64,000 bases of DNA from Bacillota bacterium. GTDB lineage: Bacteria > Bacillota > Clostridia > Lachnospirales > Lachnospiraceae. Below, piece after piece: positions 17,794 through 59,365 of this stretch; the stretch's first letter is position 1, and the number at the start of each line of letters is the position of its first letter. Location of the stretch: contig JAQXYZ010000066.1 of the NCBI GenBank assembly GCA_029226935.1, positions 1,748 through 65,747 on the forward strand. The letters are read 5' to 3'. The notes under the pieces were generated by a model. It made no database searches and had not been told where the DNA came from. It saw only the letters and a program-made list of their open reading frames with translations. The position numbers were made by a program, and so were the translations under genes.

Positions 17794-19758
<1,965 letters not shown>

Positions 19759-19780
19759 TGTCAAATAGTTAGGAGCAAAA

Positions 19781-38499: not shown

Positions 38500-38522
38500 A
38501 ATTGCCACCATTCCTTCCTGCA

Positions 38523-39698
38523 TTAATCTAAAACAACCACATTTTTAAAATACCAGTTAATGCCTCCTGTAATAGTAGCATCATCTAAAGTTTTACCTTC
38601 CTCACCTACTGTACTTCCGTCGTTTGTTTCAATCACCCCGTCAAATACATTGAATGAACCTGAAAGAATTTGTGCTGTAGCCTCGTCTACTTTTTCCTGT
38701 GTTCCATCTGCGCAGAAACTTGCAAGGTCTGTCACTTCTACAAGTCCTTCTTTCATACCACCATAATAATTTGAACCATCCCATGTGCCGTCAATAATGC
38801 TTTCTACCGCTGATGTATAATATGCGCTCCAGTTCCAAATAACGCTGCACAAACAAGAATCCGGAGTTTCCTTACTCATATCAGAATTATATCCAATTCC
38901 GTATACTCCCCTTTCCTGCGCCAGTGTCTGTGGATAAGGCGTATCGCAGTGCTGCGACATTACATCACATCCCATATCTAACAGCTCTTCTGTTGCTGCC
39001 TTTTCAGCTTCAGGATCGAACCAGCTGTTTGTAACTTTTACATATATGACTGCATCCGGGTTCACTGAATATATACCCATTGCAAATGCATCAATACCGC
39101 CTGTTACTTCTGAATTAGAGGAATCCTGTGCAGCAACATACCCGATTTTATTGGTTTTTGTGTTCATTCCTGCAACAATGCCACTTATATATCTTGCTTG
39201 ATAGATTCGACCAAAGTAATTGTTGAAATTTTTGCCATTACTCATATATCCTGTTCCATGTGAAAAATATATGTCCGGGTATTTTTCTGCCATATCGGAT
39301 GTCGGCTGCATATAACCCCAGCTTGTAGTGAAAATCACATTACATCCTTCATCTATACATTCCTGAATGGCTGTGCAGATTGCTTCTGCATCTCCATCAT
39401 CTACATTCAGTTTTCGTACGATCTGATCGTCTGTTAGTCCGAGGTTTGCCTGCATTCCCTGAATGCCTATGTCATGTGTATATGAGTATCCGCTTCCTTC
39501 TGCCGGGTCTGAAATATGTAATACCCCAACTTTTATTTCTTCTTTAGGTATTCCTTTGCTATCTTCCACTACCTCCGTCGGTTTTTCATATCCCTTATTG
39601 GTTGCATAATCATCCATATTTTCACTTCCGCAGGCAGTTAATAGAAACAAACATGATAGGAAGATGGATAAACATTGACATTTTCGTACTTTTTTCAT
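38523..39698 (-). CDS. BMP-family (PnrA/Med/TmpC-like) substrate-binding lipoprotein
   Basis: Lipobox [11 protein letters not shown] and a BMP-like core ([24 protein letters not shown]). Confidence 0.8.
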
Positions 39699-42806: not shown

Positions 42807-42835
42807 TTGACATACGAAAGGGCATATGGTAAACT
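42807..42835 (+). promoter_or_regulatory. candidate sigma-A promoter for the 900-aa gene
   Basis: TTGACA, a 17-nt spacer, then TAAACT. The tracked ATG 42826 lies inside this spacer, which argues for the downstream start at 42859. Confidence 0.4.
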
Positions 42836-42858
42836 TAAAAAATGAAAATAGGATAATT

Positions 42859-45555
42859 ATGCCCTGTGGCGATAGAATGTATGAGGTGAGTACCTTGGAT
42901 AAGTATGAATACAAAGTGCGTGCGGATGAAATTAAGTCCCTGATCTCAGAGGGAGAATATGCAGAAGCAGTTAAGATAGCAGATACTATTGACTGGCGTA
43001 GAGTAAAGAGTGTGATGATGCTCTGTACCATCAGTGATTTGTACAAGATAAACAGAAGATATGAGGACAGCAGAGATATTCTTCTTCTTGCTTATGAAAG
43101 ACATTCCGGTGGACGCCTGATAGTCTATTCTTTGTGTGAATTGTCAATTAAACTGGGAGAATATGTACAGGCATTGGAATACTATAAGGAATTTGTACAG
43201 CTTGCCCCTAAGGATAGCGGTAGATATATTCTTCAGTACAAATTATATGAGGCTCAGGAAGTAAGCTTAGAGGAAAGAATCGAAGTTTTAGAGGAGCTGA
43301 AGAAACGGGATTATCGTGAGAAATGGGCGTATGAGCTGGCATATCTCTACCACAGGGTAGGACTTGCTTCCAAGTGTGTGGAAGAATGTGATGAGATGGT
43401 ACTCTGGTTTGGAGAAGGCAGATATGTGCTAAAAGCGCTGGAACTTAAAATGCTCCACGAACCTCTCAGCGAAGAGCAGCAGATTAAGTATGAGCAGATG
43501 AAACAGACAGGCGGATATATGCTGTCTGATTACGCGGCAGACCAGCAGGCGATTCGCGAGGAGGCAGAAAAAGAAACTGAGGATGAGGAGGACAACGAAT
43601 TTAGTCTTCAGGAAAATATTCTTACAGATACCACCAGAGAAATGCCTGCCAAGGAAGAGCTTGATATACAGGTAAAGCCTGTGGATGTCAGCCAGTATAA
43701 TACCATCAACCTTCAAAAAGAATTAGCGGAAAGCATGAAGGAATTCCTGGATCAGAACAAGACACAGGAGATGCCGGAACCTGAAGAAGTTCAGCCACTG
43801 GAACAGGTAAATCAAGAGGCTGTTGAATCAGAAGAAAAATCAATGGATCGGGAGCCTGTTCTGAATCAGAATACGGATGAAATAAAGCTGATTACAAGAC
43901 CGGAACAGAACCCGGAACAGGAGTCAGAGGAAGTCTTTTTTGGAAATACGGAAGAGGTAAATATTCAGGATGTAGTCTCAGAACTGGAGGAGAAAAACAG
44001 TACTGCTGCACATTTTGCTCCTGTAAGTGAGGAAATCAGAGCTGTTTCAGAGGATGCTCCTTCAAAGACAGAGGTCTCAGTACAGGAGTCTTCATTTAAA
44101 GCAGCAAGCCCTGATCCGTCTATCAGCAACACCGGAGTAATCAGAACCTTCCATAAGCCGTCAGGATATGACGATATTCTCTCTCAGGAATATGACGGAC
44201 AGATTTCTCTGGTAGTTCCTGAGGAAGAAAAAATTGAAAAGCAGATTACAGGTCAGCTCAGCATTGACGATATCATGGCAGAGTGGGAAAAGATGAAGCA
44301 GGAAAATGAGCGCAAACGGATGGAAGAAATCCGTAAGCGGGTTCATCAGCAGACGGATACTCTTTTTGCTGATTTTGATGAGTCCACGAAGTCAGGTCTT
44401 TTGGAAGAGCTGGAAAAAGCAATGGTAACTGCAGCGATCAAGGAAGAAAAAGAGAAGGCTGCAATGGAACGACCAAGAGTGGTCAAAGTTGCTGATATTG
44501 AGAATAAAGCCAATACGGCACCGGCAGAAGAGACTTCTAAGAAAACCGTGAAAGAAGAAAGTCCGGAACCGGAGACCCCTCAACCTATAAAAGTAGAGGA
44601 AGAGGTTTCGGAAATCGAAGAAGTGGAAGAAGTTCCAGAGAACGAGGAAATTGCACAGGAAGCTGTTTCGGAAGTGGGGGATATTGAAATTACAGAATCG
44701 GAACCCACAGAACCGGATGCAGATTCAGAGTCTGAAGAAGCTTCGGAGAAGGAACCAAATACTACAGAAGTTTTGGAAAAGGAAGAAGAAAATAAGTATT
44801 CTGTTCGCGAAATGACAGATGGTGAGAGAGAACAGTTTGCTCCCTTTATTCATCATAAGAGAACGAGAAAGCAGATCGTAGAGGCAATTGATAACATCAG
44901 CATGGCATCTTATACCGGTAACGTGATTATTACAGGTGAAGAGGGGACAGGAACAACTGCTCTTGCAAAGTTGTTGGTGAAAGAAGTTCAGCTTTCTGAC
45001 AGCAATTTTTCGGGCAGGGTAGCTAAGATTTCCGGTTCCACCATGAATAAGAAGGATGTTGCGGCTACTTTATCCAAGCTTTCGGGCGGTGCACTGATTA
45101 TAGAGGATGCCGTATCTATGAAAAAGGCAACCGTGGAACAGCTGTTAAAGGAATTGAATCAGGAGGAAAAAGGGCTTATTGTTCTTTTGGAAGATACAAA
45201 AGCTAATATGAATGGATTCCTGACAAAATATCCGAATTTGACAGATGCTTTTAATCTTCGGGTTGATGTGGAGGCTCTGGACGATCAGACACTTGTAAGA
45301 TACGCTCAAAAATATGCGCTGGAGCAGGAATATTCCATTGATGAACTGGGTATTTTAGCGCTGCACACAAGAATTGCAGACATGCAGACCAGTGATCATG
45401 AGGTTACCTTATCAGAAATTGAAGAATTAGTCGATGAAGCAATTTATTATGCGGATAAAAAGACGCCGAAACATTTCTTTGATATTCTTGTAGGAAAGAG
45501 GTATGATGAAGAGGACATGATTGTTTTGCGGGAAAAGGACTTTATGCATTATTAA
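42859..45555 (+). CDS. large protein with a TPR-like N-terminus, a ~400-aa acidic low-complexity linker, and a C-terminal AAA+-like domain with degenerate Walker motifs
   Basis: N-terminal helical repeats ([30 protein letters not shown]). An E/P/S-rich middle region. The C-terminus has [18 protein letters not shown] in place of GxxGxGKT, and GALIIEDA in place of hhhhDEA. Confidence 0.6.
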
Positions 45556-47491: not shown

Positions 47492-47498
47492 CAGATGT

Positions 47499-47525
47499 TA
47501 AGAAAAGAAAAAGATATGCCGAAAT
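47499..47525 (+). promoter_or_regulatory. sigma-28 (SigD/FliA)-type promoter match
   Basis: TAAG, exactly 15 nt, then GCCGAAAT, compared with the consensus TAAA-N15-GCCGATAA/T. It lies about 55 nt upstream of the 1012-aa gene that precedes flagellin. Confidence 0.55.
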
Positions 47526-47528
47526 AAA

Positions 47529-47558
47529 GGGTGAACGCAAGATGCGTTTACCCTTTTT
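47529..47558 (+). terminator. rho-independent terminator after glgB
   Basis: GGGTGAACGC, loop AAGAT, then GCGTTTACCC (10 bp, one G-U pair) followed by TTTTT. Confidence 0.65.
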
Positions 47559-47580
47559 ATTGTATGCATGAGGTTATTAT

Positions 47581-50500
47581 ATGAATATTATGCTTGAAGG
47601 AACTAAAACAGGTTCCACCCAAACACATACAAGTGCAGGCAGGGATACAACTATATATCGTACACCGCAGGATACAGAAAAGGTTGAAAATTGCGGTTTT
47701 GCATTAGACATTTCTGGTACAGTTATGGATAACAGCGCTTATGCAGGTCATGGACGGACCACAGAAGAGGTTATGCTGGAAGCAGGGCAGCAGGATATTA
47801 CTGCCCGGCGCAACTATATGGCAGTTATGTCTAATTCTATGTCAGATGAAGATTTTGCAAAGCTACAGAAGGAAGGATTTCATCCCGGCAGTACGGATGT
47901 TGAGACAGTTGTAACCATTGTAGATCATATAAAAGCAGCGCTTATAAAAGGCGGAAATCAGGTAACTGGTTATACAGATACCATTTCTGATGATGTGCTG
48001 AAGAACATTACCGGAAGTGAGACCTTTGCACAGGAGCTTAAGAAGCAGTTTGCACAGAAGGATATTCCTTTAACGGAAGAAAATGTAACTGCTGTAACTG
48101 ATGCATGGAATATGCTGACAGAAGTAGGTTCCATGACAGAGGGCAGCGAAAAATATATGATTGAAAATAGTCTTGCCATTACGCCTGAAAATATATATAC
48201 CTCCCGGTTTTCTGCATCCTATGACAGCAGCAGACAGGGAAAGGGCTATTATGCGGCAGGTGCAGTAGCCGGTTATTATGCCAAAAAACCGGAGGAGATT
48301 GATTTTGAAAAGCTTAAGCCGCAGATGGCAGGTGTAATCGAAGAGGCAGGATATGAAGTAAATGAGGATCGTCTTGCAGATGCAAAATGGCTGGTAGAAA
48401 AGGGAATCCCTTTAAATGTTGATACCTTTTCCCTTTTAAGTGACATTCGTAAGCAGACTTTTCCAATATCTTATCCGGATTTTGTTTCAGCTGTTACCTG
48501 TGCCATTGCTGATGGAACCGCTCCTGAAAAAGCAGATCTTACCCAGAAGCAGACCTGCATTGAACAGGCAGCAGAGCTTGTAGAGAAGCTTAGTGGAATA
48601 GAGAACAGGGCAGCAGACCTTATTATGATGAGAGAGCTTCCTCTTACCATAAAGAATTTACTGGCTATGCAGGATCAGATGAACCATGGTTCCGGTCAGG
48701 TTCTTTTGTCGGAGCAGGGGACGGAGAACACGCATGGACGCCGACTTCTGGAAGAGATCAGGCTATCTATGACGACAGAGGCAAATTTAAAGCTGTTAAA
48801 GAGCGGATATCAGATTGAAACTGCCCCTTTGGAGGAATTGGTTGCCAAATTAAAGGAGGCAGAAATCAGCTATAATAAAGCCCTGACCGGAGAGGTGGAC
48901 GCCGGAAAGGCACAGGAGAAGGCATCACTTTATCAGGAAACGCTTACGGTAATACAGGGAATCTCGTCATCTCCGGCAGCTGTTCTGGCACAAATATCAG
49001 GAGAGGATACCCTAAAAGATATCTATTCTTATGGACTTGACCGAAGTCTTATTTATGAAAAGGCAGGTCAGACTTATGAGACGATGATGACAGCTCCAAG
49101 GATGGATATGGGGGATTCCATACAAAAAGCATTTCGCAACGTGGACACAATCCTTGAGGATATGGGTGTAGCACTTTCAGAAGCTAACAGACGCGGAGTT
49201 CGAATTTTAGGATATAACAATATTGAGATTACTGAAGAAAATCTTGCAGAAATCAGGGATAAAGATGATTTGCTGATTGGTGTAATCAGGGAAATGAAGC
49301 CGGGCCGGGTTTTAAAAATGATTCGGGAAGGAGTAAACCCTTTAAATATGCCGCTGGAAGAATTGAAGCAGTATCTGGGCAATCAAACTGATATTGCCGA
49401 AGAAATAGAGTCCTATAGCAGATTCCTTTATAAGCTGGAAAATCAAAAGGATATCACAGAGGAAGAAAGAAGTGCTTATATCGGCATTTACAGGCTGGTA
49501 CGCCAAATTGAAAAGGGCGATGATGCAGCAATTGGAGCAATCTGGCAAAGCGGTGCTGAATTTACTTTGGGGAATCTTTTGAGTGCAGTAAGAAGCAGTA
49601 AGCGCGGACATATGGATTATTCCATCAATGACAGTTTTGGAGGCGTTGAATCTAAAGGCAAGGGCAGAGAAAAAATTACCGATCAGATTGCAAGAGCATT
49701 TGCCTCCGGTACTGTACCGGACAAAAAGGAAATGGAAGCGCTTGTTGAAAAAGCAGGCAATGAGACAGCCGGAGAAGAATTTGACAGGATGATTTTTGAT
49801 CAGGCACGGAGCGCGGTAAGATCAGAGGATGCGATATATCAATATCTGGAAAATTACGGGCAGACGGTAACAACAGATCATCTCTTGTCAGCAGGTATGC
49901 TTTTGAAAAATCCGAGATCAATTTGGCGTGGTTTTAAAAGCAACTTTGATGTGCAGCCAGCAGATGAGAAAGAAAATTACATTGAAAAAGCGGGTTCAGA
50001 GGTTATCAAAGCTCTGGGCAGCCGGGAAGAAGTACAAACGGCATATGAAGGTTTTAGGGAAAGACTTCAGAATATGCTTAAAGATACAGCATTTACAGGT
50101 TCAAATACCGCGGTGGACGTGAAGGCGATGAGCACCCTTTACAAACACATTTCTTTCTTAAGTTCCATGGCAAGGGAAGAAAATTATGAAATTCCTGCAA
50201 ATATCGACGGATCATTAACCTCTATTAATCTTAAGATTGTACATAGTAATCAGCAGGAAAGTAAGGTTGCCATAAGTTTTGAAACAGAAGAAATGGGAAA
50301 AACAGCGGCAGAATTTAAGCTGACGGAACAGGGGCTTACAGGATTTTGTATTTCTTCCTCTGATGAATGGACACAGAAGATGGAAGAAAGCAGAGAATTG
50401 CTTGAAGAGAAATTAAAAGAAGAGCAGATTCCCGTGGGAGAAATTTATTTTGCAACCGGCAAAAAGCTTAATCTGGAAGAATTTTCACTAAAGGAATCAA

Positions 50501-50619
50501 GTGGTCGACAGGCTCTTGGCAATTCAGGAACTCTTTACCGGGCGGCGAGAGCATTTATTGGATACATACAGGAAACAGGCTTAAAGAAAGGAAATACAGC
50601 TTATGAAAATCAGTTTTAA
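47581..50619 (+). CDS. 1012-aa soluble protein of unknown function, probably flagellum-associated
   Basis: A long ORF behind a GAGG SD, with no TM or signal peptide and a polar, disordered N-terminus. Its stop overlaps the flagellin start by 17 nt. The flagellar role is inferred from context only. Confidence 0.7.
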   Translation: MNIMLEGTKTGSTQTHTSAGRDTTIYRTPQDTEKVENCGFALDISGTVMDNSAYAGHGRTTEEVMLEAGQQDITARRNYMAVMSNSMSDEDFAKLQKEGFHPGSTDVETVVTIVDHIKAALIKGGNQVTGYTDTISDDVLKNITGSETFAQELKKQFAQKDIPLTEENVTAVTDAWNMLTEVGSMTEGSEKYMIENSLAITPENIYTSRFSASYDSSRQGKGYYAAGAVAGYYAKKPEEIDFEKLKPQMAGVIEEAGYEVNEDRLADAKWLVEKGIPLNVDTFSLLSDIRKQTFPISYPDFVSAVTCAIADGTAPEKADLTQKQTCIEQAAELVEKLSGIENRAADLIMMRELPLTIKNLLAMQDQMNHGSGQVLLSEQGTENTHGRRLLEEIRLSMTTEANLKLLKSGYQIETAPLEELVAKLKEAEISYNKALTGEVDAGKAQEKASLYQETLTVIQGISSSPAAVLAQISGEDTLKDIYSYGLDRSLIYEKAGQTYETMMTAPRMDMGDSIQKAFRNVDTILEDMGVALSEANRRGVRILGYNNIEITEENLAEIRDKDDLLIGVIREMKPGRVLKMIREGVNPLNMPLEELKQYLGNQTDIAEEIESYSRFLYKLENQKDITEEERSAYIGIYRLVRQIEKGDDAAIGAIWQSGAEFTLGNLLSAVRSSKRGHMDYSINDSFGGVESKGKGREKITDQIARAFASGTVPDKKEMEALVEKAGNETAGEEFDRMIFDQARSAVRSEDAIYQYLENYGQTVTTDHLLSAGMLLKNPRSIWRGFKSNFDVQPADEKENYIEKAGSEVIKALGSREEVQTAYEGFRERLQNMLKDTAFTGSNTAVDVKAMSTLYKHISFLSSMAREENYEIPANIDGSLTSINLKIVHSNQQESKVAISFETEEMGKTAAEFKLTEQGLTGFCISSSDEWTQKMEESRELLEEKLKEEQIPVGEIYFATGKKLNLEEFSLKESSGRQALGNSGTLYRAARAFIGYIQETGLKKGNTAYENQF

Positions 50620-51697
50620 TGCATCGGCAGTGCTTGCCAATAACTCATTAACCAGAAATGATAACAGATTACAGGATTCTTTAGCCAGACTCTCTTCCGG
50701 TCTTAAGATTGTAAATGCCAAGGATAATCCTTCCGGTCTTGCCATGTCAAAGCGAATGAACGCACAGATTGAAGGAATCAATCAGGCAACACAAAATTCC
50801 GGCGATGGAATATCCATCATTGAGATTGCTGACGGAACCTTAAGTGAAATTCACGATATTCTTCAGAGAATCAATGAACTCGCCGTAAAATCAAGTACGG
50901 GAACACTTACCGATGATGACCGGAAAATGATAAATGATGAAGCTCAGCAGTTGATGGAAGAAGTGGAACGGATGGCAAATGAGGCTGAGTTCAACGGACA
51001 AAACATTTTGGACGGTTCTTTTGATCTTAAAGGATATACAGATAAAGAAAACGTGAAACTGACCTATTGCAGTGAGAACATGAAGGCGGGAACTTATGAT
51101 TATAAGATTGATGTGACTTATAATGATGATGGTACAATTGCAAAAGCAGAAACAGCTGATGGGGAGATCAGCCATATTAATGGGAACAGCATTACTGTTA
51201 CCCGGGGTAAGGACTCCGAAGTAAAGCTTCACATTGAGCCGGAGGCAGGTCAGGCTGCAGGAACAGTACATACGGTAAACACAAGCATACAGATAGAAAA
51301 TTTTGGCGCTATGGATATGCAGATCGGAGCAAACGAAGGACAGCAGCTGTCTATTAAAATTCCTAAAATTTCTCTTGAAAATATTGGAATTTCAGGCGCA
51401 GACTTAAGCACACAGGAGGGTGCTGCAGATGTATTAAGCAAAATGGGGGATGCTGTAAAATTTATATCTTCCGTGCGAAGCCGGCTGGGTGCATATCAGA
51501 ATCGTCTGGAGCATACTATCAACAGTCTGGATATTACCAATGAAAATATGACAGCCGCCTACTCCCGTATTATGGATGTGGATATGGCAGAAGAAATGAC
51601 AGAGTACACAACCGTACAGGTATTATCACAGGCAAGTACATCCATGCTGGCACAGGCGAATGAAAGACCTGCACAGGTATTACAGCTGTTACAGTAA
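50603..51697 (+). CDS. fliC: flagellin
   Basis: N-terminal D0/D1 (LARLSSGLKIVNAKDNPSGLAMSKRM, ILQRINELAVKS) and C-terminal D1/D0 (VRSRLGAYQNRLEHTINSL, QVLSQASTSMLAQANERPAQVLQLLQ). Confidence 0.9.
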   Translation: MKISFNASAVLANNSLTRNDNRLQDSLARLSSGLKIVNAKDNPSGLAMSKRMNAQIEGINQATQNSGDGISIIEIADGTLSEIHDILQRINELAVKSSTGTLTDDDRKMINDEAQQLMEEVERMANEAEFNGQNILDGSFDLKGYTDKENVKLTYCSENMKAGTYDYKIDVTYNDDGTIAKAETADGEISHINGNSITVTRGKDSEVKLHIEPEAGQAAGTVHTVNTSIQIENFGAMDMQIGANEGQQLSIKIPKISLENIGISGADLSTQEGAADVLSKMGDAVKFISSVRSRLGAYQNRLEHTINSLDITNENMTAAYSRIMDVDMAEEMTEYTTVQVLSQASTSMLAQANERPAQVLQLLQ

Positions 51698-51731: not shown

Positions 51732-52208
51732 ATGACAAAGGAATTAAAACAGCAATATACCCTGAAAATTACTCAGGCAAATAAAACTCAGCTGGTAGTT
51801 ATTCTCTATGAAATGCTTCTCATTTATCTTGATGAAGCACAGAAGGCTCATGAGGAAAACAGCAGAGAAGGGTTTCGGGAAGGAATCAGAAAAGCCAGAG
51901 GCTGCCTTAAAGAACTGATGGCATCTCTGCATTTTGAATATGAGCCTGCCATGAATCTGCTGCAGCTCTATCTGTATGCCAACAGGGAACTTGCAAGAGC
52001 AGATATCAGAAACAGCCTTAAGGAGCTGGATCATGTAAGAATGGTCATGACCAGACTCCATGAGGCATATGCGGCAATCAGTAATCAGGATACCTCCGGT
52101 CCGGTTATGGAAAATACCCAGACCGTTTATGCCGGGCTTACCTACGGAAAAACAGCTCTTACTGAAAATTTATCCGATCAGGGAAGCAGCAGGGGTTTCC
52201 GTGCTTAA
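51732..52208 (+). CDS. fliS: flagellar export chaperone FliS
   Basis: 158 aa with the four-helix pattern QLVVILYEMLLIYLDEA...KARGCLKELMASL...NLLQLYLYANRELARA. It lies directly after flagellin. Confidence 0.8.
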   Translation: MTKELKQQYTLKITQANKTQLVVILYEMLLIYLDEAQKAHEENSREGFREGIRKARGCLKELMASLHFEYEPAMNLLQLYLYANRELARADIRNSLKELDHVRMVMTRLHEAYAAISNQDTSGPVMENTQTVYAGLTYGKTALTENLSDQGSSRGFRA

Positions 52209-53135: not shown

Positions 53136-54164
53136 TTGGACAAAAGAATCCTTGCGATTTTTGACAGCGAGGAGGGATATGCATATCGGCTGATGGAGTT
53201 TATGAGCGGAAAGAAAAATCTGCCTTTTGAGGTATATGTTTTTACCGATGGAGAGAAATTTTACTCCTGTGCCCAAATTACAAATATTGAATGTCTTCTC
53301 ATATCAGAAAGCGCATATAAACAGGAAGTGGAGACTCTGAAAATTCCACACATTATTATTCTAAGCGAAAGCGGAGCAAATCTAAGCAAAACATTACATC
53401 ATATCAGTAAATATCAGTCATGTGAAATGATTTTCCATCAAATAATGGAATATTATACAGACCGATCAGAAACAGTACCCATAGCCTTAAGAACAGGATT
53501 ACGGAAAATGAAAATAATAGGGATTTATACGCCTGTTGGAAGATGTCTTCAAACCACGTTTTCCCTGACGCTTGGACAGATGCTTGCGAGGCAGTTTAAA
53601 ACTTTGTATCTGAATTTTGAGGTTTATTCAGGATTTTCCAGGATGCTTTCCAGAGAATTCCGCAGTGATATTACAGATCTAATGTATTATTTTAATTCTG
53701 CCAGAGAAAAGCTGGTATGTCGGCTGGAGAGTATCGTCGAAACGGTAAGTGGGCTTGATTTTGTGCCACCGGCACAAATGATACAAAACCTGAATGGAAT
53801 CAGAGGTGCCCAGTGGCTGGATTTATTTCATGAGATAGAAAAGACCAGCGAATATGAATATCTGATACTGGATCTTACAGACGGAATTATGGATTTATGG
53901 GACGTTCTGCGGGGGTGTGATCACATTTACACTATTACCAAAGGAGATCCTCTGGCAATAGCAAAAGTGGAACAGTATGAAAAGATTCTGGAGGATATGG
54001 ATTACGGGGATATTACTGCCAAAACTACCAAATGGAGGCTTCCTGTGTTTAAGCAGCTTCCGGTCTGCTTCGAGGAACTGACTTATGGGGAGCTTGCCCG
54101 GTATATCCGCACGCAGGTTTTTCCCGAACTTTTCGGGGAGGATGCAGATGAATACAAAAGATGA
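53136..54164 (+). CDS. TadZ/CpaE-like protein: atypical receiver domain plus a ParA/MinD-like domain with a degenerate P-loop
   Basis: TTG start behind an AAAGGGGG SD. The N-terminal ~110 aa are receiver-like (ILAIFDSEEGYAY...ECLLISES). Next comes IIGIYTPVGRCLQTTFSLTLGQMLA where CpaE has SxKGGxGKTT. It lies immediately upstream of cpaF. Confidence 0.6.
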   Translation: MDKRILAIFDSEEGYAYRLMEFMSGKKNLPFEVYVFTDGEKFYSCAQITNIECLLISESAYKQEVETLKIPHIIILSESGANLSKTLHHISKYQSCEMIFHQIMEYYTDRSETVPIALRTGLRKMKIIGIYTPVGRCLQTTFSLTLGQMLARQFKTLYLNFEVYSGFSRMLSREFRSDITDLMYYFNSAREKLVCRLESIVETVSGLDFVPPAQMIQNLNGIRGAQWLDLFHEIEKTSEYEYLILDLTDGIMDLWDVLRGCDHIYTITKGDPLAIAKVEQYEKILEDMDYGDITAKTTKWRLPVFKQLPVCFEELTYGELARYIRTQVFPELFGEDADEYKR

Positions 54165-55293
54165 CAAAAACCTGCAGGAGCTGATCATAAGCAGACTGGA
54201 TCTGTCCAAACATATGAGTGCGGATGAAATACGGGAATTGATTGATGTGGAAATTCAAAAGGAGAGCAAAAAACGGCATCTGGATGTTCGCATCAGAGAA
54301 GAGATAGGAAGAGAAATTTTTCATTCTGTCAGGCAGCTGGGAATTTTACAGGAGCTGATTGAAAACCCGGAAATCACTGAGATTATGGTCAACGGTACAC
54401 AGAGTATCTTCATAGAGCAGAAAGGAAAGCTGAAACAACTGGATATATGTTTTGACTCGACCGAAAAACTTAAACATGTAATTTGGCAGATTACAGCAGG
54501 CTGCAATAGGGTGGTAAATGAAGCTTCTCCCATTGTGGATGCCAGATTGCCGGATGGCGCCAGAGTAAATGTGGTACTTGACCCTATTGCCATTAATGGT
54601 CCTATTCTGACCATCAGAAGATTCCCGCCTGACCCTATTACCATAGATCAGCTTCTTCGGATGGGTTCTTTGACGGAAGAATGTAAGGATTTGCTTGAAA
54701 AACAAGTGCAGGAAGGCTGCAATATTCTGGTAAGTGGAGGAACCGGATCAGGGAAGACTACTTTTTTAAATATTCTGTCACAATTTATACCTAAGACAGA
54801 AAGAGTTATCACGATTGAAGACAGTGCGGAGCTGCAAATCAGAAATATTCCCAATCTGGTCAGTCTTGAGACAAGAAATGCAAATGTAGAAGGCTGCAGG
54901 GAAATTACCATTCGTGATCTGATCAGGACTTCCCTGCGGATGCGGCCGGACAGGATTATCGTCGGAGAGGTACGGGGAAAGGAAGCTGTAGATATGCTCC
55001 AGAGTGTCAATGTTGGACACAGCGCCATGACGACAGTACATGCAAACAGCGTCAGAGATGTGGTCAGCCGCCTGGAGACAATGGTGCTTATGGGAATGGA
55101 AATGCCTCTTTCTGCCATACGAAAACAGATTGTATCAGGCTTTGATCTGATGGTTCATCTGGGAAGGCTCAAGGATGGAAGCAGACGGGTTTTGGAGATT
55201 GCAGAGCCTTTGGAAATTCGTGAAGGGGAGGTTATTATGCGGACCATTTACCGACTTGAGCAGAAAGGAATACCTGCAAATGAGAAAAAGTAA
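54148..55293 (+). CDS. tadA: CpaF/TadA-family secretion ATPase
   Basis: Walker A VSGGTGSGKTTFLN, Asp box ITIEDSAELQ, Walker B RPDRIIVGEVRG, and His box GHSAMTTVHAN. The start is ATG 54148, six nt after GGAGG, overlapping the upstream gene by 17 nt. Confidence 0.92.
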   Translation: MNTKDDKNLQELIISRLDLSKHMSADEIRELIDVEIQKESKKRHLDVRIREEIGREIFHSVRQLGILQELIENPEITEIMVNGTQSIFIEQKGKLKQLDICFDSTEKLKHVIWQITAGCNRVVNEASPIVDARLPDGARVNVVLDPIAINGPILTIRRFPPDPITIDQLLRMGSLTEECKDLLEKQVQEGCNILVSGGTGSGKTTFLNILSQFIPKTERVITIEDSAELQIRNIPNLVSLETRNANVEGCREITIRDLIRTSLRMRPDRIIVGEVRGKEAVDMLQSVNVGHSAMTTVHANSVRDVVSRLETMVLMGMEMPLSAIRKQIVSGFDLMVHLGRLKDGSRRVLEIAEPLEIREGEVIMRTIYRLEQKGIPANEKK

Positions 55294-56032
55294 CAGTGAA
55301 AGGATACTTCTTCCATTTACGAAAAGGGAAAGGTGGATATTGGCAGCAAAAAGCGTAATGGTGGTGCTGATATTGGATTATTTTTTTTACCAATCATGGC
55401 TGGCTGTTTTTCCTTTGGCGGCAGCAGGATTTCTTTATTGCCGGATGGAAAAGAAAATTCTCTATGAAAAGAAAAAAGATTTGGCACTGGAACAGTTTAA
55501 AGAATTAATGCTGTTAGTTTCCACCGGACAAAAAGCAGGATATTCTGCGGACAATGCTTTTCTCTCAAGCTATCAGGATATGAAGGTGCTTTACGGAAGT
55601 AGCAGCAGTGTCTGCATCATGATAGATATGTTAAAAGCGGGAAAAGAAAATCATATTCCGTTTACGGAGCTATGGAAGCAGATTGGAGAAAAAATTCATA
55701 TTGAAGAAATCAGAGAGTTTGCAGATATTTATGAAATTTCCCATAAGAGCAGCGGAAACGTTGCAGCAGTTATGGAAAAGACAGCAGAGATTATCGTCCG
55801 AAAAATTGAGACAGAGAAAGAGATTGCCGTTATGATAAGCGCCAAAAGGCTGGAACAGAAGATTATGAATATGATGCCGTTTCTGATTATGCTTTATATC
55901 AGTATAGTATATCCGGGATATTTTGAACCACTTTATCATTCCTTACCCGGCGTTTTGATAATGAGCGTCTGCCTGCTTGTCTATCTGTGCGCTTACGGGC
56001 TGTCAGTTTACATCATTTCCATCAAAATATAA
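55280..56032 (+). CDS. tadB: TadB-like T2SSF-family inner-membrane platform protein
   Basis: 250 aa with an N-terminal TM, a cytoplasmic helical domain and C-terminal TM helices. The ATG at 55280 overlaps the cpaF stop by 14 nt. Confidence 0.75.
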   Translation: MRKSNSERILLPFTKRERWILAAKSVMVVLILDYFFYQSWLAVFPLAAAGFLYCRMEKKILYEKKKDLALEQFKELMLLVSTGQKAGYSADNAFLSSYQDMKVLYGSSSSVCIMIDMLKAGKENHIPFTELWKQIGEKIHIEEIREFADIYEISHKSSGNVAAVMEKTAEIIVRKIETEKEIAVMISAKRLEQKIMNMMPFLIMLYISIVYPGYFEPLYHSLPGVLIMSVCLLVYLCAYGLSVYIISIKI

Positions 56033-56045
56033 AGAAGGAGGATCT

Positions 56046-56843
56046 ATGAAAAACCCGTTTTTTCAGTTAGCAGCATGGATATATGGAAAGCATAAGCAAA
56101 ACCGGTCAAATGGCAGAAATCAGATGATATATAAGGAATTGTCACAATTGCATCCATTTGAGGATCAGGAAAAACTTTATGAAAATTATCAGATCAAAAA
56201 AATGGCAACAGTAGTTTCTGCTTGGACTGTAGAAATAATTTATGTGATATTCTTTCACTTTTCTAATCGGTCAGAGAACAGATGGATGGAAGGGGCGTTG
56301 TTTTTACTGTTATCCGGAGTACTGATTTCAATGGCAATGGACAGTGACTTAAAAAAGAACTGCCGGAAAAGAAGCAGGCAGTTACTTATGGATTATGGGA
56401 GATTTGTTAACAGGCTAAGGCTGTATTTATCCGCCGGGCTTACCCTAAAAAATGCGTTTGTCAGAATTATGAGAGAATTAAAGAAAGAAAAGAGAGGAAA
56501 AGAGAAATGTTATCTACAGGAAGAAATGCAGATAGCATGTTATCGGTTAGAAAATGGTGTGTTAGAGGAAAAGGTTTATCAGGACTTTGGCAGACGATGT
56601 GACGAAATGCCTTACAGAAGATTATGTTTTTTGTTGGCAATGCATTTAAAGCAGGGTAATCATCAACTTTTGTTACTGCTTGAAAAAGAGGCGGACAGTG
56701 CACAGGAGGAGAGAAGAAATATGGCAAAAAAACTGGGAGAAGAGGCAGGAACCAAATTGCTCTTTCCAATGATGCTGATGCTTGGCATAGTAATGTTTTT
56801 GATACTAATCCCTGCTTATTTCAGCTTTGGGACTATTTCATAA
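56046..56843 (+). CDS. tadC: TadC-like T2SSF-family inner-membrane platform protein
   Basis: 265 aa with the same architecture as the preceding gene. ATG 56046 follows a GAAGGAGG SD. Confidence 0.7.
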   Translation: MKNPFFQLAAWIYGKHKQNRSNGRNQMIYKELSQLHPFEDQEKLYENYQIKKMATVVSAWTVEIIYVIFFHFSNRSENRWMEGALFLLLSGVLISMAMDSDLKKNCRKRSRQLLMDYGRFVNRLRLYLSAGLTLKNAFVRIMRELKKEKRGKEKCYLQEEMQIACYRLENGVLEEKVYQDFGRRCDEMPYRRLCFLLAMHLKQGNHQLLLLLEKEADSAQEERRNMAKKLGEEAGTKLLFPMMLMLGIVMFLILIPAYFSFGTIS

Positions 56844-56875
56844 GAAGAACATAAAATCGAAATGGAGGATGAAAA

Positions 56876-57061
56876 ATGAAAACAATTAAGAAAAGATTCA
56901 TGGAACAATGTAAGGATAACAGAGGTATGGGCACAGTAGAAATGATATTAATCATTGTGGTATTAATCGGTCTGGTGCTGATTTTTAAAAATCAGATCCA
57001 ACAACTGGCAGCAGTAATTTTTGACAAAATATCCGTAGACAGCGCTGCAATTTTGTCCTGA
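56876..57061 (+). CDS. flp: Flp-family type IVb/IVc pilin
   Basis: 61 aa with a basic leader MKTIKKRFMEQCKDNRG, then MGTVEMILIIVVLIGLVLIF (Glu at +5 after the Gly, then a hydrophobic helix). GGAGG SD 7 nt upstream. Confidence 0.8.
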   Translation: MKTIKKRFMEQCKDNRGMGTVEMILIIVVLIGLVLIFKNQIQQLAAVIFDKISVDSAAILS

Positions 57062-58449
57062 TGAGGGGATATTTGACAGTGTTTCTGGCGATGTCTTTAT
57101 CTGTATTGACCGGTTTTATTCTGCTGCTTGCCGGAGGCGCAATCAGAAATGAAGAAAAAGTCAGGTTGGAATGTGCTTTAGACACAGGCATGAATGCGGT
57201 ACTTTCCGAATATCATATTGGATTGTTTGAAAGATATGGACTTTTATATGTGGATGCTTCTTATTTAGGGCGTGCCCCGGCAATATCCAACGTAGAAGAA
57301 AGACTGATGTTTTATCTAAAAGAGAATACAGAAAAGACATTGGAAGGAGAGCATACGCCTTGGGGAAACCTGCATATTGAAAAGGTACAAATCCCCTGTT
57401 TTGAAACAGCAGCCGCCAACAGAGGAGCATCCATGAGAAATCAGGCAGTTTGTTATGTGGAAGATGTTGGAATGAAGGAACAGGAGAAAGAAGCCTTTTT
57501 GCATATAGAAGAGATCAGGGCGCTGGAAGATAATGATCCTATAACAGAGTGGAATGACATTATGGAACAGCTGGCAGGGATAGAACTTCCCCGGATTTTA
57601 AATGAAAAAGGAATATGGGAGGAGGTTCCCTTGTCCAATCCAGCAGATTGGGTGTTTGGGCTTATAAACAGCGATATTTTGTATCTGGCAGGAATTGAAC
57701 CGCAAAATATTAATCCGGCACATGTTTCTCTGGAAGATTATATTTCTCACAGACAGATTGAAAACATAAATTCAGATGACCAAAGGGAAAAAAATGATAC
57801 AGAGCTTTTTGCATCATATTTATTTCATCAGATGGGCTGTCTGAAAGGTGTAAGGGAAGGTTCTCTTCTTACCTGCCAATTAGAGTACCTTGTCCAAGGC
57901 AAGGATTCTGATTTGGAAAATGTGAGAGGGGTGGCAGAGAAGCTAATGCGTTGGAGATTTTCAGACAATCTTTCAAGAGCCATATCCGACGGAGATTTAA
58001 GAGCGCAGGCTATGGATGCAGCAGAAAAATTACAGGCTGTTCAACTAAAAGAAGCATTAAGGGACCCGGTTGCAGAGAGTATTTTGTATGCATGCGCTTT
58101 TCTGGAAAGTATTGGAGACATTCAGTCCCTTTACAACGGCGGCAGAGTGCCGGTGAGAAAAACGGGTCATCAGATGTCGGTGAATCAAGTATTGCATGGG
58201 AACTTCTGTGCGACAAATAGCAGTAGTGGGCTGACCTATGAACAGTATCTTGCCTGTATGCTTTTACTTACAGAAGACGACATTTTAAATTTAAGAGCAA
58301 TGGATCTAATGGAAATGGATATTCGTTATAGTGACGGAAACCATAATTTTGCCATGGATTGGTGTATAGAAAGATATGAGGCGACTGTAATCGCAAAATC
58401 AGGCTTTGGAATTAATTTGTCTTTAAGACGAAAATACGGTTATTTCTAA
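57061..58449 (+). CDS. 462-aa pilin-like or pilus-associated protein (DUF5702-like, from memory)
   Basis: The start overlaps the flp stop (TGATG). The N-terminus MRG-YLTVFLAMSLSVLTGFILLL resembles a class III signal/anchor, but Phe replaces Glu at +5. Confidence 0.6.
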   Translation: MRGYLTVFLAMSLSVLTGFILLLAGGAIRNEEKVRLECALDTGMNAVLSEYHIGLFERYGLLYVDASYLGRAPAISNVEERLMFYLKENTEKTLEGEHTPWGNLHIEKVQIPCFETAAANRGASMRNQAVCYVEDVGMKEQEKEAFLHIEEIRALEDNDPITEWNDIMEQLAGIELPRILNEKGIWEEVPLSNPADWVFGLINSDILYLAGIEPQNINPAHVSLEDYISHRQIENINSDDQREKNDTELFASYLFHQMGCLKGVREGSLLTCQLEYLVQGKDSDLENVRGVAEKLMRWRFSDNLSRAISDGDLRAQAMDAAEKLQAVQLKEALRDPVAESILYACAFLESIGDIQSLYNGGRVPVRKTGHQMSVNQVLHGNFCATNSSSGLTYEQYLACMLLLTEDDILNLRAMDLMEMDIRYSDGNHNFAMDWCIERYEATVIAKSGFGINLSLRRKYGYF

Positions 58450-58484
58450 TGGATACCGGAAGAAAGGAAAAGTGCTCTCCTTAG

Positions 58485-59360
58485 GTGAGCATAGTAACTA
58501 TTAACAAGCAAATGATAAGAATCCCTTCTCTCAAATTCTACCAAATAAAAATATTAAGGTTTATCAGGAGAGCATTTTTTCTTTCTTCCGGGAAGCTGAA
58601 AGCAGGAATGACGCTGGAAGGATGTATGGTTCTTCCGATTTTTCTTTTCTTTATGATGACGGTTATGTTGAGCATTGAAACAGTGCGGTTTCAGAGCCAT
58701 ATTCAGGAAGCATTATATCAGGCAGGAAATGAAAGAGCGTTTTCGGAATATCGAGTAAAGTATCAGGGAAAAACAAAAGTGAATTCACAGGAGCAAATAA
58801 AAGAATATCTTGAAAGTCAGCTGTATCCTTATCTTTGTGTGAAGGGAGGAAAAGAAGGTATAAGGTTTCAGGATCTATCCGTTACAGAGCAGGGAAAGAT
58901 TGAATATGTCCTAAGCTGCCGGATTAAGCCGTTCATTGAATGGCTTCCCATAGGCGATGTTGTTATGAATGACAGGTTTTTCAGTCATTCATGGATCGGT
59001 TACAGCAAAATAGAGTCGCAGGACGGTAATGTCGTGCCGGAGATTTATGTATATGTGACCCGGACAGGGAGCAGATATCATATGTCCTATGAGTGTACAC
59101 ATCTGAACGTTCAGGTACATATGGAAGAGTACGAAAATCTTTTCGGTCTGCGAAATCAGTCTGGTGGAAAATATTATGCCTGCGAGAGATGTAAACCTCT
59201 GGCAGAGGGCACAGTTTATATTACAAATGATGGAGACTGTTATCATGGTCAGGCAGATTGTTCTTCTCTTAAGAGAACGATTTGTATGATTCCATTAAGT
59301 GAGGCAGCAGGATATAGTCCCTGCAGCAAATGTGCAGGAAAGAAGGAAAGGGCTTTTTAA
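58485..59360 (+). CDS. TadE-like pseudopilin fused to two C-terminal His/Cys (HCCC) zinc-knuckle modules
   Basis: KAGMTLEGCMVLPIFLFF is a TadE-type N-terminus. The C-terminus has VYVTRTGSRYHMSYECTHL...YYACERC and VYITNDGDCYHGQADCSSL...YSPCSKC. The start is uncertain (GTG 58485, ATG 58512 or ATG 58605). Confidence 0.6.
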   Translation: MSIVTINKQMIRIPSLKFYQIKILRFIRRAFFLSSGKLKAGMTLEGCMVLPIFLFFMMTVMLSIETVRFQSHIQEALYQAGNERAFSEYRVKYQGKTKVNSQEQIKEYLESQLYPYLCVKGGKEGIRFQDLSVTEQGKIEYVLSCRIKPFIEWLPIGDVVMNDRFFSHSWIGYSKIESQDGNVVPEIYVYVTRTGSRYHMSYECTHLNVQVHMEEYENLFGLRNQSGGKYYACERCKPLAEGTVYITNDGDCYHGQADCSSLKRTICMIPLSEAAGYSPCSKCAGKKERAF

Positions 59361-59365
59361 GGGCA

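What the first reader, a model, noticed from the sequence alone, without database searches (positions are those of the whole stretch)
47581..50619. 1012-aa unknown protein transcribed from a sigma-28-type promoter and overlapping the flagellin start codon
Flagellin genes normally have their own strong promoter. Here I see no sigma-28 match in the 100 nt before flagellin. Instead, a 3-kb ORF ends 17 nt inside it (ATG 50603, stop 50617..50619). The big protein has no TM or signal peptide and a polar, Thr/Gly-rich N-terminus, as flagellar type III substrates often do. It contains recurring [G]IPL[TN]-x-[ED][NT] helical modules (KDIPLTEENV, KGIPLNVDTF, NPLNMPLEEL). Its last ~120 aa (SINLKIVHSNQQESKVAISFETEE...EQIPVGEIYF) loosely resemble the FliK hook-length-control C-terminal pattern. 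I cannot assign it to a named family.
Basis: partly seen in the sequence, partly recalled or inferred. Interest (0 to 1): 0.65.

Follow-up and report, generated by a model that had tools for sequence, protein, structure and literature searches.

The report
FliK-like giant protein leading a minor-flagellin operon
The 1012-residue protein is a real, widely conserved but unstudied flagellar protein of gut Lachnospiraceae (Pfam DUF6240) that ends in the same "export-switch" domain as the hook-length ruler FliK. It heads a flagellar-sigma-factor operon with the poorly understood "FlaB-like/silent" flagellin and a dedicated FliS chaperone.

Summary
ORF 47581..50619 (+) encodes 1012 aa. It overlaps the flagellin ATG (50603) by 17 nt and has no transmembrane segment.

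It is not family-less. It matches Pfam DUF6240 (391 bits). Its C-terminus is a FliK/YscP-type T3S4 domain: Flg_hook E 2e-6, and the two best Foldseek PDB matches are PscP and FliK switch domains.

In 79 species-level Lachnospiraceae loci the order DUF6240 – flagellin – fliS is kept wherever the contig allows. This holds down to 32% identity. A motif gTTAAGAAA-N12-TGCCGAAAT sits upstream in 77/79 loci. It matches the sigma-28 consensus TAAA-N15-GCCGATAA and occurs once in the window.

The linked flagellin belongs to the "FlaB-like" clade (Neville clade a). This clade includes the prototype silent flagellin RhFlaB, and a 2025 preprint found it almost absent from filaments.

In Roseburia intestinalis the DUF6240 gene coexists with a canonical fliK in the hook operon, so it is a second, late-class FliK paralogue.

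Best reading: a sigma-28-controlled T3S4 protein that acts at the FlhB export gate, and is probably exported itself, to control handling of the minor flagellin. The function is inferred, not shown.

I class it as a new variant of a known kind, with interest about 0.62.

The parts
47498..47505 (+). -35 region of the sigma-28-type promoter (TTAAGAAA; core TAAG at 47499-47502)
   Evidence: TTAAG is invariant in 67 aligned orthologous upstream regions. It is the only exact match to the motif in the window.
47518..47525 (+). -10 region of the sigma-28-type promoter (GCCGAAAT; consensus GCCGATAA), 15 nt after TAAG
   Evidence: CCGAAAT is invariant in 67 aligned loci and the motif is present in 77/79 loci. 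It stays with the DUF6240 gene even where another gene separates it from glgB (L087).
47527..47561 (+). Conserved RNA hairpin (stem 47527-47556) followed by a T run. It looks like the glgB intrinsic terminator, and its 5' arm begins 2 nt after the -10 element.
   Evidence: Terminator scan. Folding energy -22.2 kcal/mol, z = -6.4. Of 12 pairs, 8 show compensatory changes, and the U-G/G-U wobbles pair only in + strand RNA. The hairpin is absent in L087, where glgB is not the upstream neighbour.
47569..47572 (+). Ribosome-binding site (GAGG), 8 nt before the ATG
   Evidence: Read directly from the sequence.
47581..50619 (+). Gene for the 1012-aa DUF6240 / FliK-like protein (stop codon included)
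47581..47694 (+). Variable, polar, Thr/Gly-rich N-terminus (aa 1-38). Across the family it begins M-[KN]-I-[TY]-F. It is a candidate type III export signal.
   Evidence: Low conservation with a conserved start. pLDDT is below 50.
47698..47712 (+). Conserved aromatic-x-x-x-hydrophobic motif (FALDI, aa 40-44), at the position of a gate-recognition motif
   Evidence: The pattern [FY]-x-[LIV]-D-[ILF] is conserved across 143 representatives, a median of 38 residues from the N-terminus. The comparison with early substrates comes from PMC8983047.
47695..47985 (+). Strongly conserved N-terminal region (aa 39-135, with VMSN..S.ED..) that is modelled with low confidence
47986..48660 (+). Helical-hairpin module (aa 136-360) with IPLTEEN-type helix-start motifs. 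It is a diverged copy of part of the DUF6240 core.
   Evidence: Model secondary structure, hhalign, motif count.
48748..49581 (+). DUF6240 core (Pfam PF19753, aa 390-667), the most conserved part (MT.PR.D.GDSI.KAF.N, RILGYN, IGIYR)
50176..50463 (+). C-terminal T3S4 (FliK/YscP-type substrate-specificity-switch) domain, aa ~866-961. The Pfam Flg_hook match covers aa 887-961.
   Evidence: Pfam matches. Model of five strands, two helices and one strand at pLDDT 80-90. Foldseek top hits are 5cuk (PscP) and 2rrl (FliK).
50587..50594 (+). Weak ribosome-binding site (AAAGGAAA) of the flagellin gene. It lies inside the codons for the K-K-G tail of the big protein.
   Evidence: Sequence. Orthologues that stop earlier keep AAAGG(G/A)A in front of the flagellin ATG.
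50603..51697 (+). 364-aa flagellin of the 'FlaB-like' clade (Neville clade a): N-terminus MKISFN, signature AKDNPSG
   Evidence: Flagellin_N and Flagellin_C domains. Clade signature in all 78 linked flagellins. Closer to R. intestinalis ROSINTL182_05247 than to a co-resident ordinary flagellin.
51732..52208 (+). fliS, the flagellin export chaperone and last gene of the operon
   Evidence: Pfam FliS E = 7.5e-22. It follows the flagellin in 76/79 loci, and the three misses are contig ends.

Best explanation
The ORF encodes a late-class paralogue of the hook-length and export-switch protein FliK.

**Architecture**
- A disordered N-terminus with features of an early type III export substrate.
- About 800 residues of conserved helical-hairpin modules, which make up the DUF6240 region.
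- A C-terminal T3S4 domain, the module by which FliK and YscP act on FlhB/YscU at the export gate.

**Operon**
It is the first gene of a three-gene operon: DUF6240, a FlaB-like flagellin, and fliS. The operon is read from a sigma-28 (FliA/SigD)-type promoter. That promoter is nested just upstream of the glgB terminator hairpin. Operon transcripts would therefore start inside the hairpin's 5' arm and escape termination, while read-through from glgB is stopped.

**Proposed mechanism (inferred)**
1. Once sigma-28 is active, the cell makes this protein together with a low-abundance specialised flagellin and that flagellin's own chaperone. Translation of the first two is often coupled.
2. The protein docks at the cytoplasmic domain of FlhB and is probably exported.
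3. It gates or measures the export and assembly of the minor flagellin relative to the main filament flagellins.

**Shown:** gene, family, domain, operon synteny, promoter conservation, flagellin clade, and coexistence with a canonical fliK in R. intestinalis.

**Inferred:** sigma-28 dependence, export, FlhB binding, and the role in minor-flagellin handling.
For: - **Family.** DUF6240 at 391 bits. 1646 clusters at 50% identity.
- **T3S4 domain.** Flg_hook E = 2e-6 to 5.5e-6 in the window protein. 14 of 20 orthologous C-termini match at E <= 0.01, best 2.8e-8. Many homologues, including the 99%-identical P0001, carry PF02120 in the precomputed annotation. Foldseek of the C-terminal model ranks the PscP switch domain (probability 0.98, rmsd 2.6 A) and FliK-C (probability 0.80) first and second of 350,542 chains.
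- **Operon.** A flagellin follows in 78/79 loci and fliS in 76/79. All misses are contig ends. The order is kept at 32% identity. Stop and start overlap or lie within 6 nt in about 66 of 78 loci.
- **Promoter.** Conserved in 77/79 loci, unique in the window, and it stays with the gene in L087.
- **Hairpin.**
- **Coexisting FliK.** Locus L084 reproduces R. intestinalis ROSINTL182_05247 exactly: first ten residues, 486 aa, TAGA-N15-CCGATAT, and 78 nt to the start codon (against Table 1 of PMC3720852). That species has FliK ROSINTL182_07391 next to flgD.
- **Minor flagellin.** FlaB-like flagellins were undetected, or at 1-6% of the weakest flagellin, in sheared preparations (bioRxiv 10.1101/2025.07.18.665615).
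- **Export-signal-like N-terminus.**, compared with PMC8983047.
Against: - The Flg_hook score of the window protein is just below Pfam's gathering threshold. The Foldseek E-values are weak (0.057 and 0.15).
- The DUF6240 region is highly conserved and predicted to be folded. FliK's ruler region is poorly conserved, which argues against a simple ruler role.
- A gate-recognition motif marks early substrates, whereas sigma-28 expression is late. The timing is therefore not self-evident.
- No transcription start, secretion or interaction data exist. The public runs found held only assembled contigs and were uninformative.
- In R. intestinalis the gene is 7 kb from the flagellin, so linkage in cis is not obligatory.
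- The aromatic-xxx-hydrophobic motif is short and could be a coincidence.
Confidence: 0.5

Rival explanations
1. It is a cytoplasmic regulator or holding factor for the FlaB-like flagellin and is not exported. In this reading a large acidic helical scaffold uses its T3S4-like domain to occupy FlhB-C, or binds the flagellin-FliS complex. Export of the minor flagellin is thereby held back or timed.
For: - FlaB-like flagellins are nearly absent from filaments although the genes are conserved.
- The protein has net charge -50 and a long, conserved, folded helical region.
- Translational coupling points to matched synthesis of the two proteins.
Against: - Every characterised T3S4 protein (FliK, YscP, PscP, HrpP) is itself secreted. 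This rests on established knowledge, not on a test here.
- The N-terminus is disordered and polar, with a conserved M-K-I-x-F start and a gate-recognition-like motif at residue ~40. These are features of exported substrates.
Confidence: 0.2
2. It is the organism's real hook-length ruler, functionally FliK. The shorter 'FliK' annotated in the hook operon of Lachnospiraceae would then do something else or be redundant.
For: - It has a T3S4 domain and early-substrate-like signals.
- One NCBI record names a family member 'flagellar hook-length control protein FliK' (P0238).
Against: - A canonical fliK sits between fliJ and flgD in five Lachnospiraceae genomes, including R. intestinalis, which also has DUF6240.
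- The gene is expressed with late genes (flagellin, fliS) from a sigma-28-type promoter.
- By Salmonella scaling, 1012 residues would give a hook far longer than usual. That scaling is my own estimate.
Confidence: 0.1
3. It is an exported structural component, for example a cap, adaptor or scaffold for a short filament segment made of the FlaB-like flagellin. In this reading the C-terminal domain serves only as a targeting module.
For: - It is strictly linked to one flagellin clade and its chaperone.
- It is conserved along its whole length.
Against: - It has no similarity to FliD, FlgK or FlgL, and none of the terminal heptad domains typical of axial proteins.
- The T3S4 domain is a regulatory module wherever it has been studied.
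Confidence: 0.1
4. The flagellar link is only positional: an unrelated protein that happens to lie between glgB and a flagellin gene.
For: - glgB is also a conserved neighbour (76/79 loci).
- The surrounding genes (sporulation-related DUF2508 and BofA, a Tad pilus locus) are not flagellar.
Against: - The promoter is of the flagellar sigma-factor type and moves with the gene.
- The C-terminal domain is flagellar or injectisome specific.
- The link to flagellin and fliS holds down to 32% identity even where the downstream neighbours differ.
Confidence: 0.03

Closest known systems
FliK, flagellar hook-length control protein (Salmonella, Bacillus; Pfam Flg_hook PF02120)
   Same: - C-terminal T3S4 domain, by HMM and by fold.
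- Disordered polar N-terminus with a hydrophobic start and an aromatic-xxx-hydrophobic motif about 40 residues in.
- No TM segment or Sec signal.
- Encoded in a flagellar operon.
   Different: - 2.5 times longer than Salmonella FliK (405 aa).
- The central region is a well-conserved helical-repeat domain (DUF6240), not a poorly conserved Pro/Gln-rich linker.
- It is encoded with flagellin and fliS behind a sigma-28-type promoter, not between fliJ and flgD.
- It coexists with a canonical FliK in R. intestinalis.
YscP / PscP / SctP, injectisome needle-length rulers
   Same: The best structural match of the C-terminal domain is the PscP switch domain (5cuk). The overall architecture is shared: N-terminal signal, long middle part, C-terminal T3S4.
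   Different: These belong to virulence injectisomes of Gram-negative bacteria. There is no sequence similarity outside the T3S4 fold, and no injectisome genes are present here.
FlaB-like / 'silent' flagellins of Lachnospiraceae (RhFlaB; Neville clade a)
   Same: The co-transcribed flagellin has the clade's N-terminus (M[KR]I[NS][FY]N) and its AKDNP[SA]G signature. It also has the same downstream neighbours (fliS, DUF2508, bofA) as R. intestinalis ROSINTL182_05247.
   Different: This comparison concerns the partner gene, not the finding itself. The window flagellin is shorter (364 aa against 476-506 aa in Roseburia and E. rectale). Neither paper read in full here that treats this flagellin clade (PMC3720852; bioRxiv 10.1101/2025.07.18.665615) describes the DUF6240 neighbour, and no paper in the library contains the term DUF6240.
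Minor-flagellin systems (Campylobacter/Helicobacter FlaB, Caulobacter multi-flagellin filaments) and FlaG filament-length regulators
   Same: A separately regulated, low-abundance flagellin with a distinct role. Accessory proteins tune what is exported after hook completion.
   Different: To my knowledge none of these systems includes a T3S4-domain protein dedicated to the minor flagellin. FlaG is small and unrelated. This resemblance is recalled from memory and is a lead, not a test.

Membership tests
Pfam DUF6240 (PF19753) | Match to the family HMM above the gathering score (26.6 bits) | tested here: met
   391.2 bits, E = 3.2e-117, full-length match over aa 390-667 plus a second stretch. 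All listed homologues carry PF19753.
FliK / T3S4 proteins (Pfam Flg_hook PF02120) | Match to the Flg_hook HMM above the gathering score (29.8 bits) | tested here: inconclusive
   The window protein scores 26.5 bits (whole protein) and 27.9 bits (C-terminus alone), E = 2e-6 to 5.5e-6, just under the cut-off. 14 of 20 orthologous C-termini match at E <= 0.01, best 2.8e-8. PF02120 is precomputed for many homologues, including the 99%-identical P0001.
FliK / T3S4 proteins | Compact alpha/beta T3S4 fold at the C-terminus | tested here: met
   AlphaFold model pLDDT is 80-90 over the domain core. Foldseek ranks 1 and 2 are the PscP switch domain (5cuk, probability 0.98, TM 0.53, rmsd 2.6 A) and FliK-C (2rrl, probability 0.80). 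E-values are weak (0.057, 0.15).
FliK / T3S4 proteins | Secreted by the type III apparatus; N-terminal export signals (hydrophobic extreme N-terminus, gate-recognition motif at least 30 residues downstream) | tested here: inconclusive
   The sequence features are present and conserved: an M-[KN]-I-x-F start, and [FY]xx D[ILF] at a median of residue 38 (criteria from PMC8983047). The motif is short, and secretion itself cannot be tested here.
FliK / T3S4 proteins | Binds FlhB-C and switches export specificity | not testable with these tools
   This needs pull-down, genetics or complex modelling. No FlhB sequence from this organism lies in the window.
Canonical FliK (orthologue) | Gene position in the hook-basal-body operon (fliJ - fliK - flgD - flgE) | tested here: not met
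   The gene lies between glgB and flagellin-fliS in all 79 loci. In R. intestinalis the hook-operon position is occupied by another gene annotated FliK (ROSINTL182_07391), while the DUF6240 gene is elsewhere.
Sigma-28 (FliA/SigD) regulon | Promoter matching TAAA-N15-GCCGATAA upstream of the gene | tested here: met
   TAAG-N15-GCCGAAAT at 47499..47525, 10 of 12 consensus positions. It is unique in the window and conserved in 77/79 orthologous loci. It agrees with the Butyrivibrio and general consensus quoted in PMC3720852.
Sigma-28 (FliA/SigD) regulon | Transcription start 5-9 nt after the -10 element, and dependence on the flagellar sigma factor | not testable with these tools
   No usable RNA data. 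The runs found were assembled contigs without strand or end information.
FlaB-like flagellin clade (partner gene) | Clade-specific N-terminus and D1 signature, and positional orthology | tested here: met
   M[KR]I[NS][FY]N and AKDNP[SA]G occur in the 78 linked flagellins. The window flagellin scores 152+143 bits against R. intestinalis clade (a), compared with 101+90 bits against an ordinary flagellin of the same kind of locus. Downstream neighbours fliS-DUF2508-bofA are the same. No formal phylogeny was made.

The most novel reading that the evidence does not exclude
Lachnospiraceae flagella may have a second, post-hook checkpoint. In this reading the DUF6240 protein is a sigma-28-dependent, exported molecular ruler or switch. 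It measures or limits a short hook-proximal segment built from the FlaB-like ('silent') flagellin, and then lets the main flagellins through.

By Salmonella FliK scaling (405 aa for a 55-nm hook, my own arithmetic), about 1000 residues would span roughly 140 nm. That is about rod plus hook plus a few tens of nanometres. A segment of that length would make up about 1% of filament subunits. This is the order of abundance reported for FlaB-like flagellins.
Probability: 0.15. Interest if true: 0.9.

Novelty: new variant of a known kind. Interest (0 to 1): 0.62.

Why it matters
- **Medical relevance.** Lachnospiraceae flagellins are major antigens and TLR5 ligands of the gut microbiota. The FlaB-like clade supplied the prototype 'silent flagellin' (RhFlaB).
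- **An open puzzle.** A 2025 preprint reports that these flagellins are barely present in filaments and that their role is unclear.
- **A concrete lead.** The gene for this flagellin is, across the family, the second gene of a flagellar-sigma-factor operon. The first gene encodes a 1000-residue FliK-like protein and the third a dedicated FliS. This suggests that the silent flagellin is a specialised, tightly controlled export substrate rather than a bulk filament subunit.
- **Broader significance.** This would be, to my knowledge, the first case of a second T3S4 protein in a flagellar system that acts in the late class. It also gives a first functional hypothesis for DUF6240, which comprises more than 1600 clusters at 50% identity and is not mentioned in any paper in the library searched.

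Tried and rejected
- **Sequence searches against solved structures.** Searches with the protein, the family profile and the C-terminal profile found nothing meaningful.
- **NCBIfam.** No match.
- **Foldseek with the whole model.** It gave only noise, apart from the PscP hit for the C-terminus. The helical DUF6240 region has no structural relative in the PDB.
- **Rfam on the leader.** No family matched; all hits were far below threshold. I therefore dropped the idea of a known riboswitch or leader.
- **Public sequencing runs.** They held only assembled contigs, so they gave no transcript ends and no operon evidence.
- **Apparent in-frame fusions.** DUF6240 and the flagellin seemed fused in L024, L035 and L077. 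This was an artefact of my stop-codon scan. A TAG lies about 15 nt before the flagellin ATG.
- **Conserved frameshift or fusion.** Rejected, because the overlaps put the flagellin in different frames in different species (-17 and -11 against -4).
- **CsrA-type leader.** Considered, but the hairpin loops have no conserved GGA.
- **Divergent FliD, FlgK or FlgL.** No domain support.
- **Canonical fliK in the window's own genome.** I could not check this.
Full report
**1. The observation**

The window has an ATG-initiated ORF at 47581..50619 (+) of 1012 codons. A second ORF at 50603..51697 (+) starts 17 nt before the first one's stop codon. The second ORF has Flagellin_N and Flagellin_C domains, and the next ORF (51732..52208) is FliS.

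Upstream, TTAAG-N15-GCCGAAAT lies at 47498..47525, between the glgB stop (47491) and the ATG. It is the only exact occurrence in the 64-kb window. Matches allowing two mismatches are no more frequent than in shuffled sequence. No sigma-28-like match lies in the 300 nt before the flagellin ATG.

The protein has no segment hydrophobic enough for a membrane helix or signal peptide (highest 19-residue mean 1.16). Its net charge is -50, and 9 of its first 40 residues are Thr.

**2. What the protein is**

The protein is not family-less. It matches Pfam DUF6240 (PF19753) at 391 bits over residues 390-667, with a second weaker stretch. It also matches Flg_hook (the FliK C-terminal domain) over residues 887-961 at 26.5 bits, just under the 29.8-bit cut-off. 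NCBIfam has nothing.

The family is large:
- At least 1616 proteins in the word-indexed search.
- 1646 clusters at 50% identity in the exhaustive search, of which 959 have E < 1e-30. Nearly all are 900-1200 residues long.
- The names sources give are 'DUF6240 domain-containing protein', 'hypothetical protein' and, once, 'flagellar hook-length control protein FliK'.
- No paper in the library contains the word DUF6240.

**3. The C-terminal domain**

Of 20 orthologous C-terminal segments scanned one by one, 14 match Flg_hook at E <= 0.01, best 2.8e-8. The AlphaFold models show a compact beta/alpha unit: five strands, two helices and one strand, at pLDDT 80-90.

I searched the C-terminal model against 350,542 PDB chains. 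The two best hits are the substrate-specificity-switch domain of the Pseudomonas needle ruler PscP (5cuk, probability 0.98, rmsd 2.6 A over 66 columns) and the C-terminal domain of Salmonella FliK (2rrl, probability 0.80). PscP also stood out from noise in the whole-protein search.

The E-values are weak. Still, the HMM and the fold independently point to the same small family, so I take the T3S4 assignment as likely (about 0.8). Sequence searches against the PDB find nothing.

**4. The rest of the protein**

- **Residues 1-38.** Variable and polar, but across 143 representatives they begin M-[KN]-I-[TY]-F.
- **Residues ~40-44.** A conserved [FY]-x-[LIV]-D-[ILF] motif lies at a median of 38 residues from the N-terminus. 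[quoted passage not shown] They also carry a gate-recognition motif at least 30 residues downstream, which docks on FlhB-C (PMC8983047). The F-x-x-x-hydrophobic form of that motif is my recollection of Evans et al. 2013. The resemblance is suggestive only.
- **Residues 39-135.** Among the best conserved, yet modelled with low confidence.
- **Residues 136-865.** Helical hairpins. hhalign aligns ~248-365 with ~521-600 at 73-80% probability. A hydrophobic-T-x-E-N-hydrophobic motif at helix starts recurs 8 times against 0.8 expected. That pattern was chosen after seeing the sequence.
- **Most conserved stretch family-wide.** It lies in the DUF6240 core: MT.PR.D.GDSI.KAF.N, RILGYN, IGIYR. This degree of conservation is unlike the ruler region of FliK.

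**5. Genomic context across species**

A scan of one genome per species returned 79 loci, all Lachnospiraceae or unclassified Bacillota, at 37-77% identity.
- A flagellin follows the gene in 78 loci and fliS in 76. The misses are contig ends.
- glgB precedes the gene in 76 loci.
- More distant members (32-41% identity) keep glgB - DUF6240 - flagellin - fliS even where the downstream genes differ.
- The stop/start spacing is -17 nt in 33 of the 79 species loci (and in the window itself), -4 in 19, -11 in 5, +1 to +6 in 8, and 15-112 nt in about 10.
- The last ~10 residues of the protein are poorly conserved. Their K-K-G codons coincide with the flagellin ribosome-binding site AAAGGA. The overlap is therefore a by-product of tight packing, not a feature of the protein.

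**6. Promoter and hairpin**

The motif gTTAAGAAA-N12-TGCCGAAAT is present upstream of the gene in 77 of 79 loci, at 36-343 nt from the start codon. TTAAG and CCGAAAT are invariant in a 67-sequence alignment. It matches the sigma-28 consensus quoted for Butyrivibrio and for bacteria in general (PMC3720852).

Where another flagellin gene is inserted between glgB and the DUF6240 gene (L087), the motif stays directly upstream of DUF6240.

Two nucleotides after the -10 element begins a 12-bp hairpin followed by a T run.
- 8 of its 12 pairs show compensatory changes.
- Its frequent U-G and G-U pairs can form only in + strand RNA.
- Its folding energy is -22.2 kcal/mol, z = -6.4.
- It is missing in L087, where glgB is not the neighbour.

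I read it as the glgB terminator. A sigma-28 transcript starting 5-9 nt after the -10 element would begin inside the 5' arm. It would keep only a 7-bp 5'-terminal stem, separated from the U run, and would not be terminated. That arrangement would insulate the operon from glgB read-through. The start site itself is unmapped. No Rfam family matches.

**7. The partner flagellin**

All 78 linked flagellins start M[KR]I[NS][FY]N and carry AKDNP[SA]G where ordinary flagellins have ADDAAG. The same features mark R. intestinalis ROSINTL182_05247, which is in Neville's clade (a).

Locus L084 reproduces that gene's published details exactly: first ten residues MRINYNVSAA, 486 aa, TAGA-N15-CCGATAT, and 78 nt to the start codon. 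L084 is therefore R. intestinalis or a very close relative.

In that species DUF6240 (P0357, 1053 aa) still follows glgB, behind a sigma-28-like TAAT-N15-TCCGATAT. However, a 7-kb insertion separates it from flagellin - fliS - DUF2508 - bofA, and the flagellin has its own promoter.

Neville's Table S1 lists a canonical FliK (ROSINTL182_07391) beside FlgD in the hook operon of the same species. The DUF6240 protein is therefore an additional T3S4 protein, not the only one.

RhFlaB, the prototype 'silent' flagellin, has a residue 478. It must therefore be the 506-aa clade (a) protein RHOM_15820, because the other R. hominis flagellins are 270-275 aa.

A 2025 preprint reports that FlaB-like flagellins are encoded by 95% of its 'G1' Clostridia. 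In sheared preparations they were undetected (strain 28-4, R. intestinalis) or at 1-6% of the weakest flagellin. Its authors call their role unclear. Strain 28-4 is locus L062 here, with the same operon.

**8. Interpretation**

Shown:
- The gene is real and conserved.
- It belongs to DUF6240.
- It carries a T3S4-type C-terminal domain.
- It heads a conserved operon with the FlaB-like flagellin and a FliS.
- The operon has a conserved promoter of sigma-28 type.
- In at least one species it coexists with a canonical fliK.

Inferred: the protein acts at the export gate through FlhB-C, as other T3S4 proteins do. It is probably exported, and it controls how the minor flagellin is handled relative to the main flagellins.

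The rivals are a non-exported regulator, the true hook ruler, a structural component, and mere co-location. They are listed with their tests in the Rival explanations section. The boldest reading not excluded is a second, post-hook ruler for a short FlaB-like filament segment.

**9. Novelty**

The family is catalogued but uncharacterised. Its T3S4 domain is visible in database annotations. The conserved operon with the silent-flagellin clade, the late-class promoter and the coexistence with FliK are, as far as the library searched shows, undescribed. I class it as a new variant of a known kind (a FliK/T3S4 protein with a new architecture and context). I give it an interest of about 0.62.

Noticed in passing
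window 47498-47561: The sigma-28-type promoter is nested immediately upstream of the glgB terminator hairpin. The left arm of the hairpin (AAAGGGTGAATG) is almost invariant across species, while the right arm varies through wobble and compensatory changes. This suggests the left arm is under double constraint, from the promoter-proximal DNA and from RNA pairing.
   Followed up: yes
L054-L066 (Kineothrix-like clade), about 211-226 nt upstream of the flagellin ATG, inside the DUF6240 ORF: A second sigma-28-like motif, TAAA-N16-[TG]CCGATAT, is conserved inside the 3' part of the DUF6240 coding region in this clade only. It may be an internal promoter for flagellin-fliS. The window has none.
   Followed up: partly
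L084-L086 (Roseburia intestinalis), 13196-19850: A 7-kb insertion splits the operon between DUF6240 and the flagellin. It carries an amidase_3, a 579-aa protein, a Ser/Thr kinase, MecA and DUF1858. The flagellin there has its own TAGA-N15-CCGATAT promoter.
   Followed up: partly
L087-L089, 7725-9797: One prevalent species has an extra 690-aa ordinary-type flagellin (ADDAAG signature) inserted between glgB and the DUF6240 gene.
   Followed up: partly
window 42826-45555: A 909-aa protein with N-terminal TPR, a long acidic low-complexity middle and a C-terminal SpoVK/CbbX-like AAA ATPase. It is conserved upstream of glgB in 74/79 loci. Function unknown.
   Followed up: no
window 52170-52208: The 3' end of fliS (+) overlaps the 3' end of the convergent DUF2508 gene (-) by 39 nt. 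The simple scan finds no intrinsic terminator after fliS.
   Followed up: no
window 53136-61467: A Tad/Flp-type pilus locus lies downstream: a TadZ-like protein, a T2SSE ATPase, T2SSF proteins, DUF5702, an A24 prepilin peptidase, a TadE-like protein and an FHA/DUF6382 protein. It is conserved next to the operon in many loci.
   Followed up: no
window 47581-47595 and 50603-50620: The N-termini of the DUF6240 family (M-[KN]-I-[TY]-F-[DE]) and of the linked flagellins (M-[KR]-I-[NS]-[FY]-N) resemble each other. This may reflect a shared export signal or may be chance.
   Followed up: partly
window 36793-38523 (-): A methyl-accepting chemotaxis protein (sCache_3_3, HAMP, MCPsignal) is the only other motility-related gene seen in the window.
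   Followed up: no
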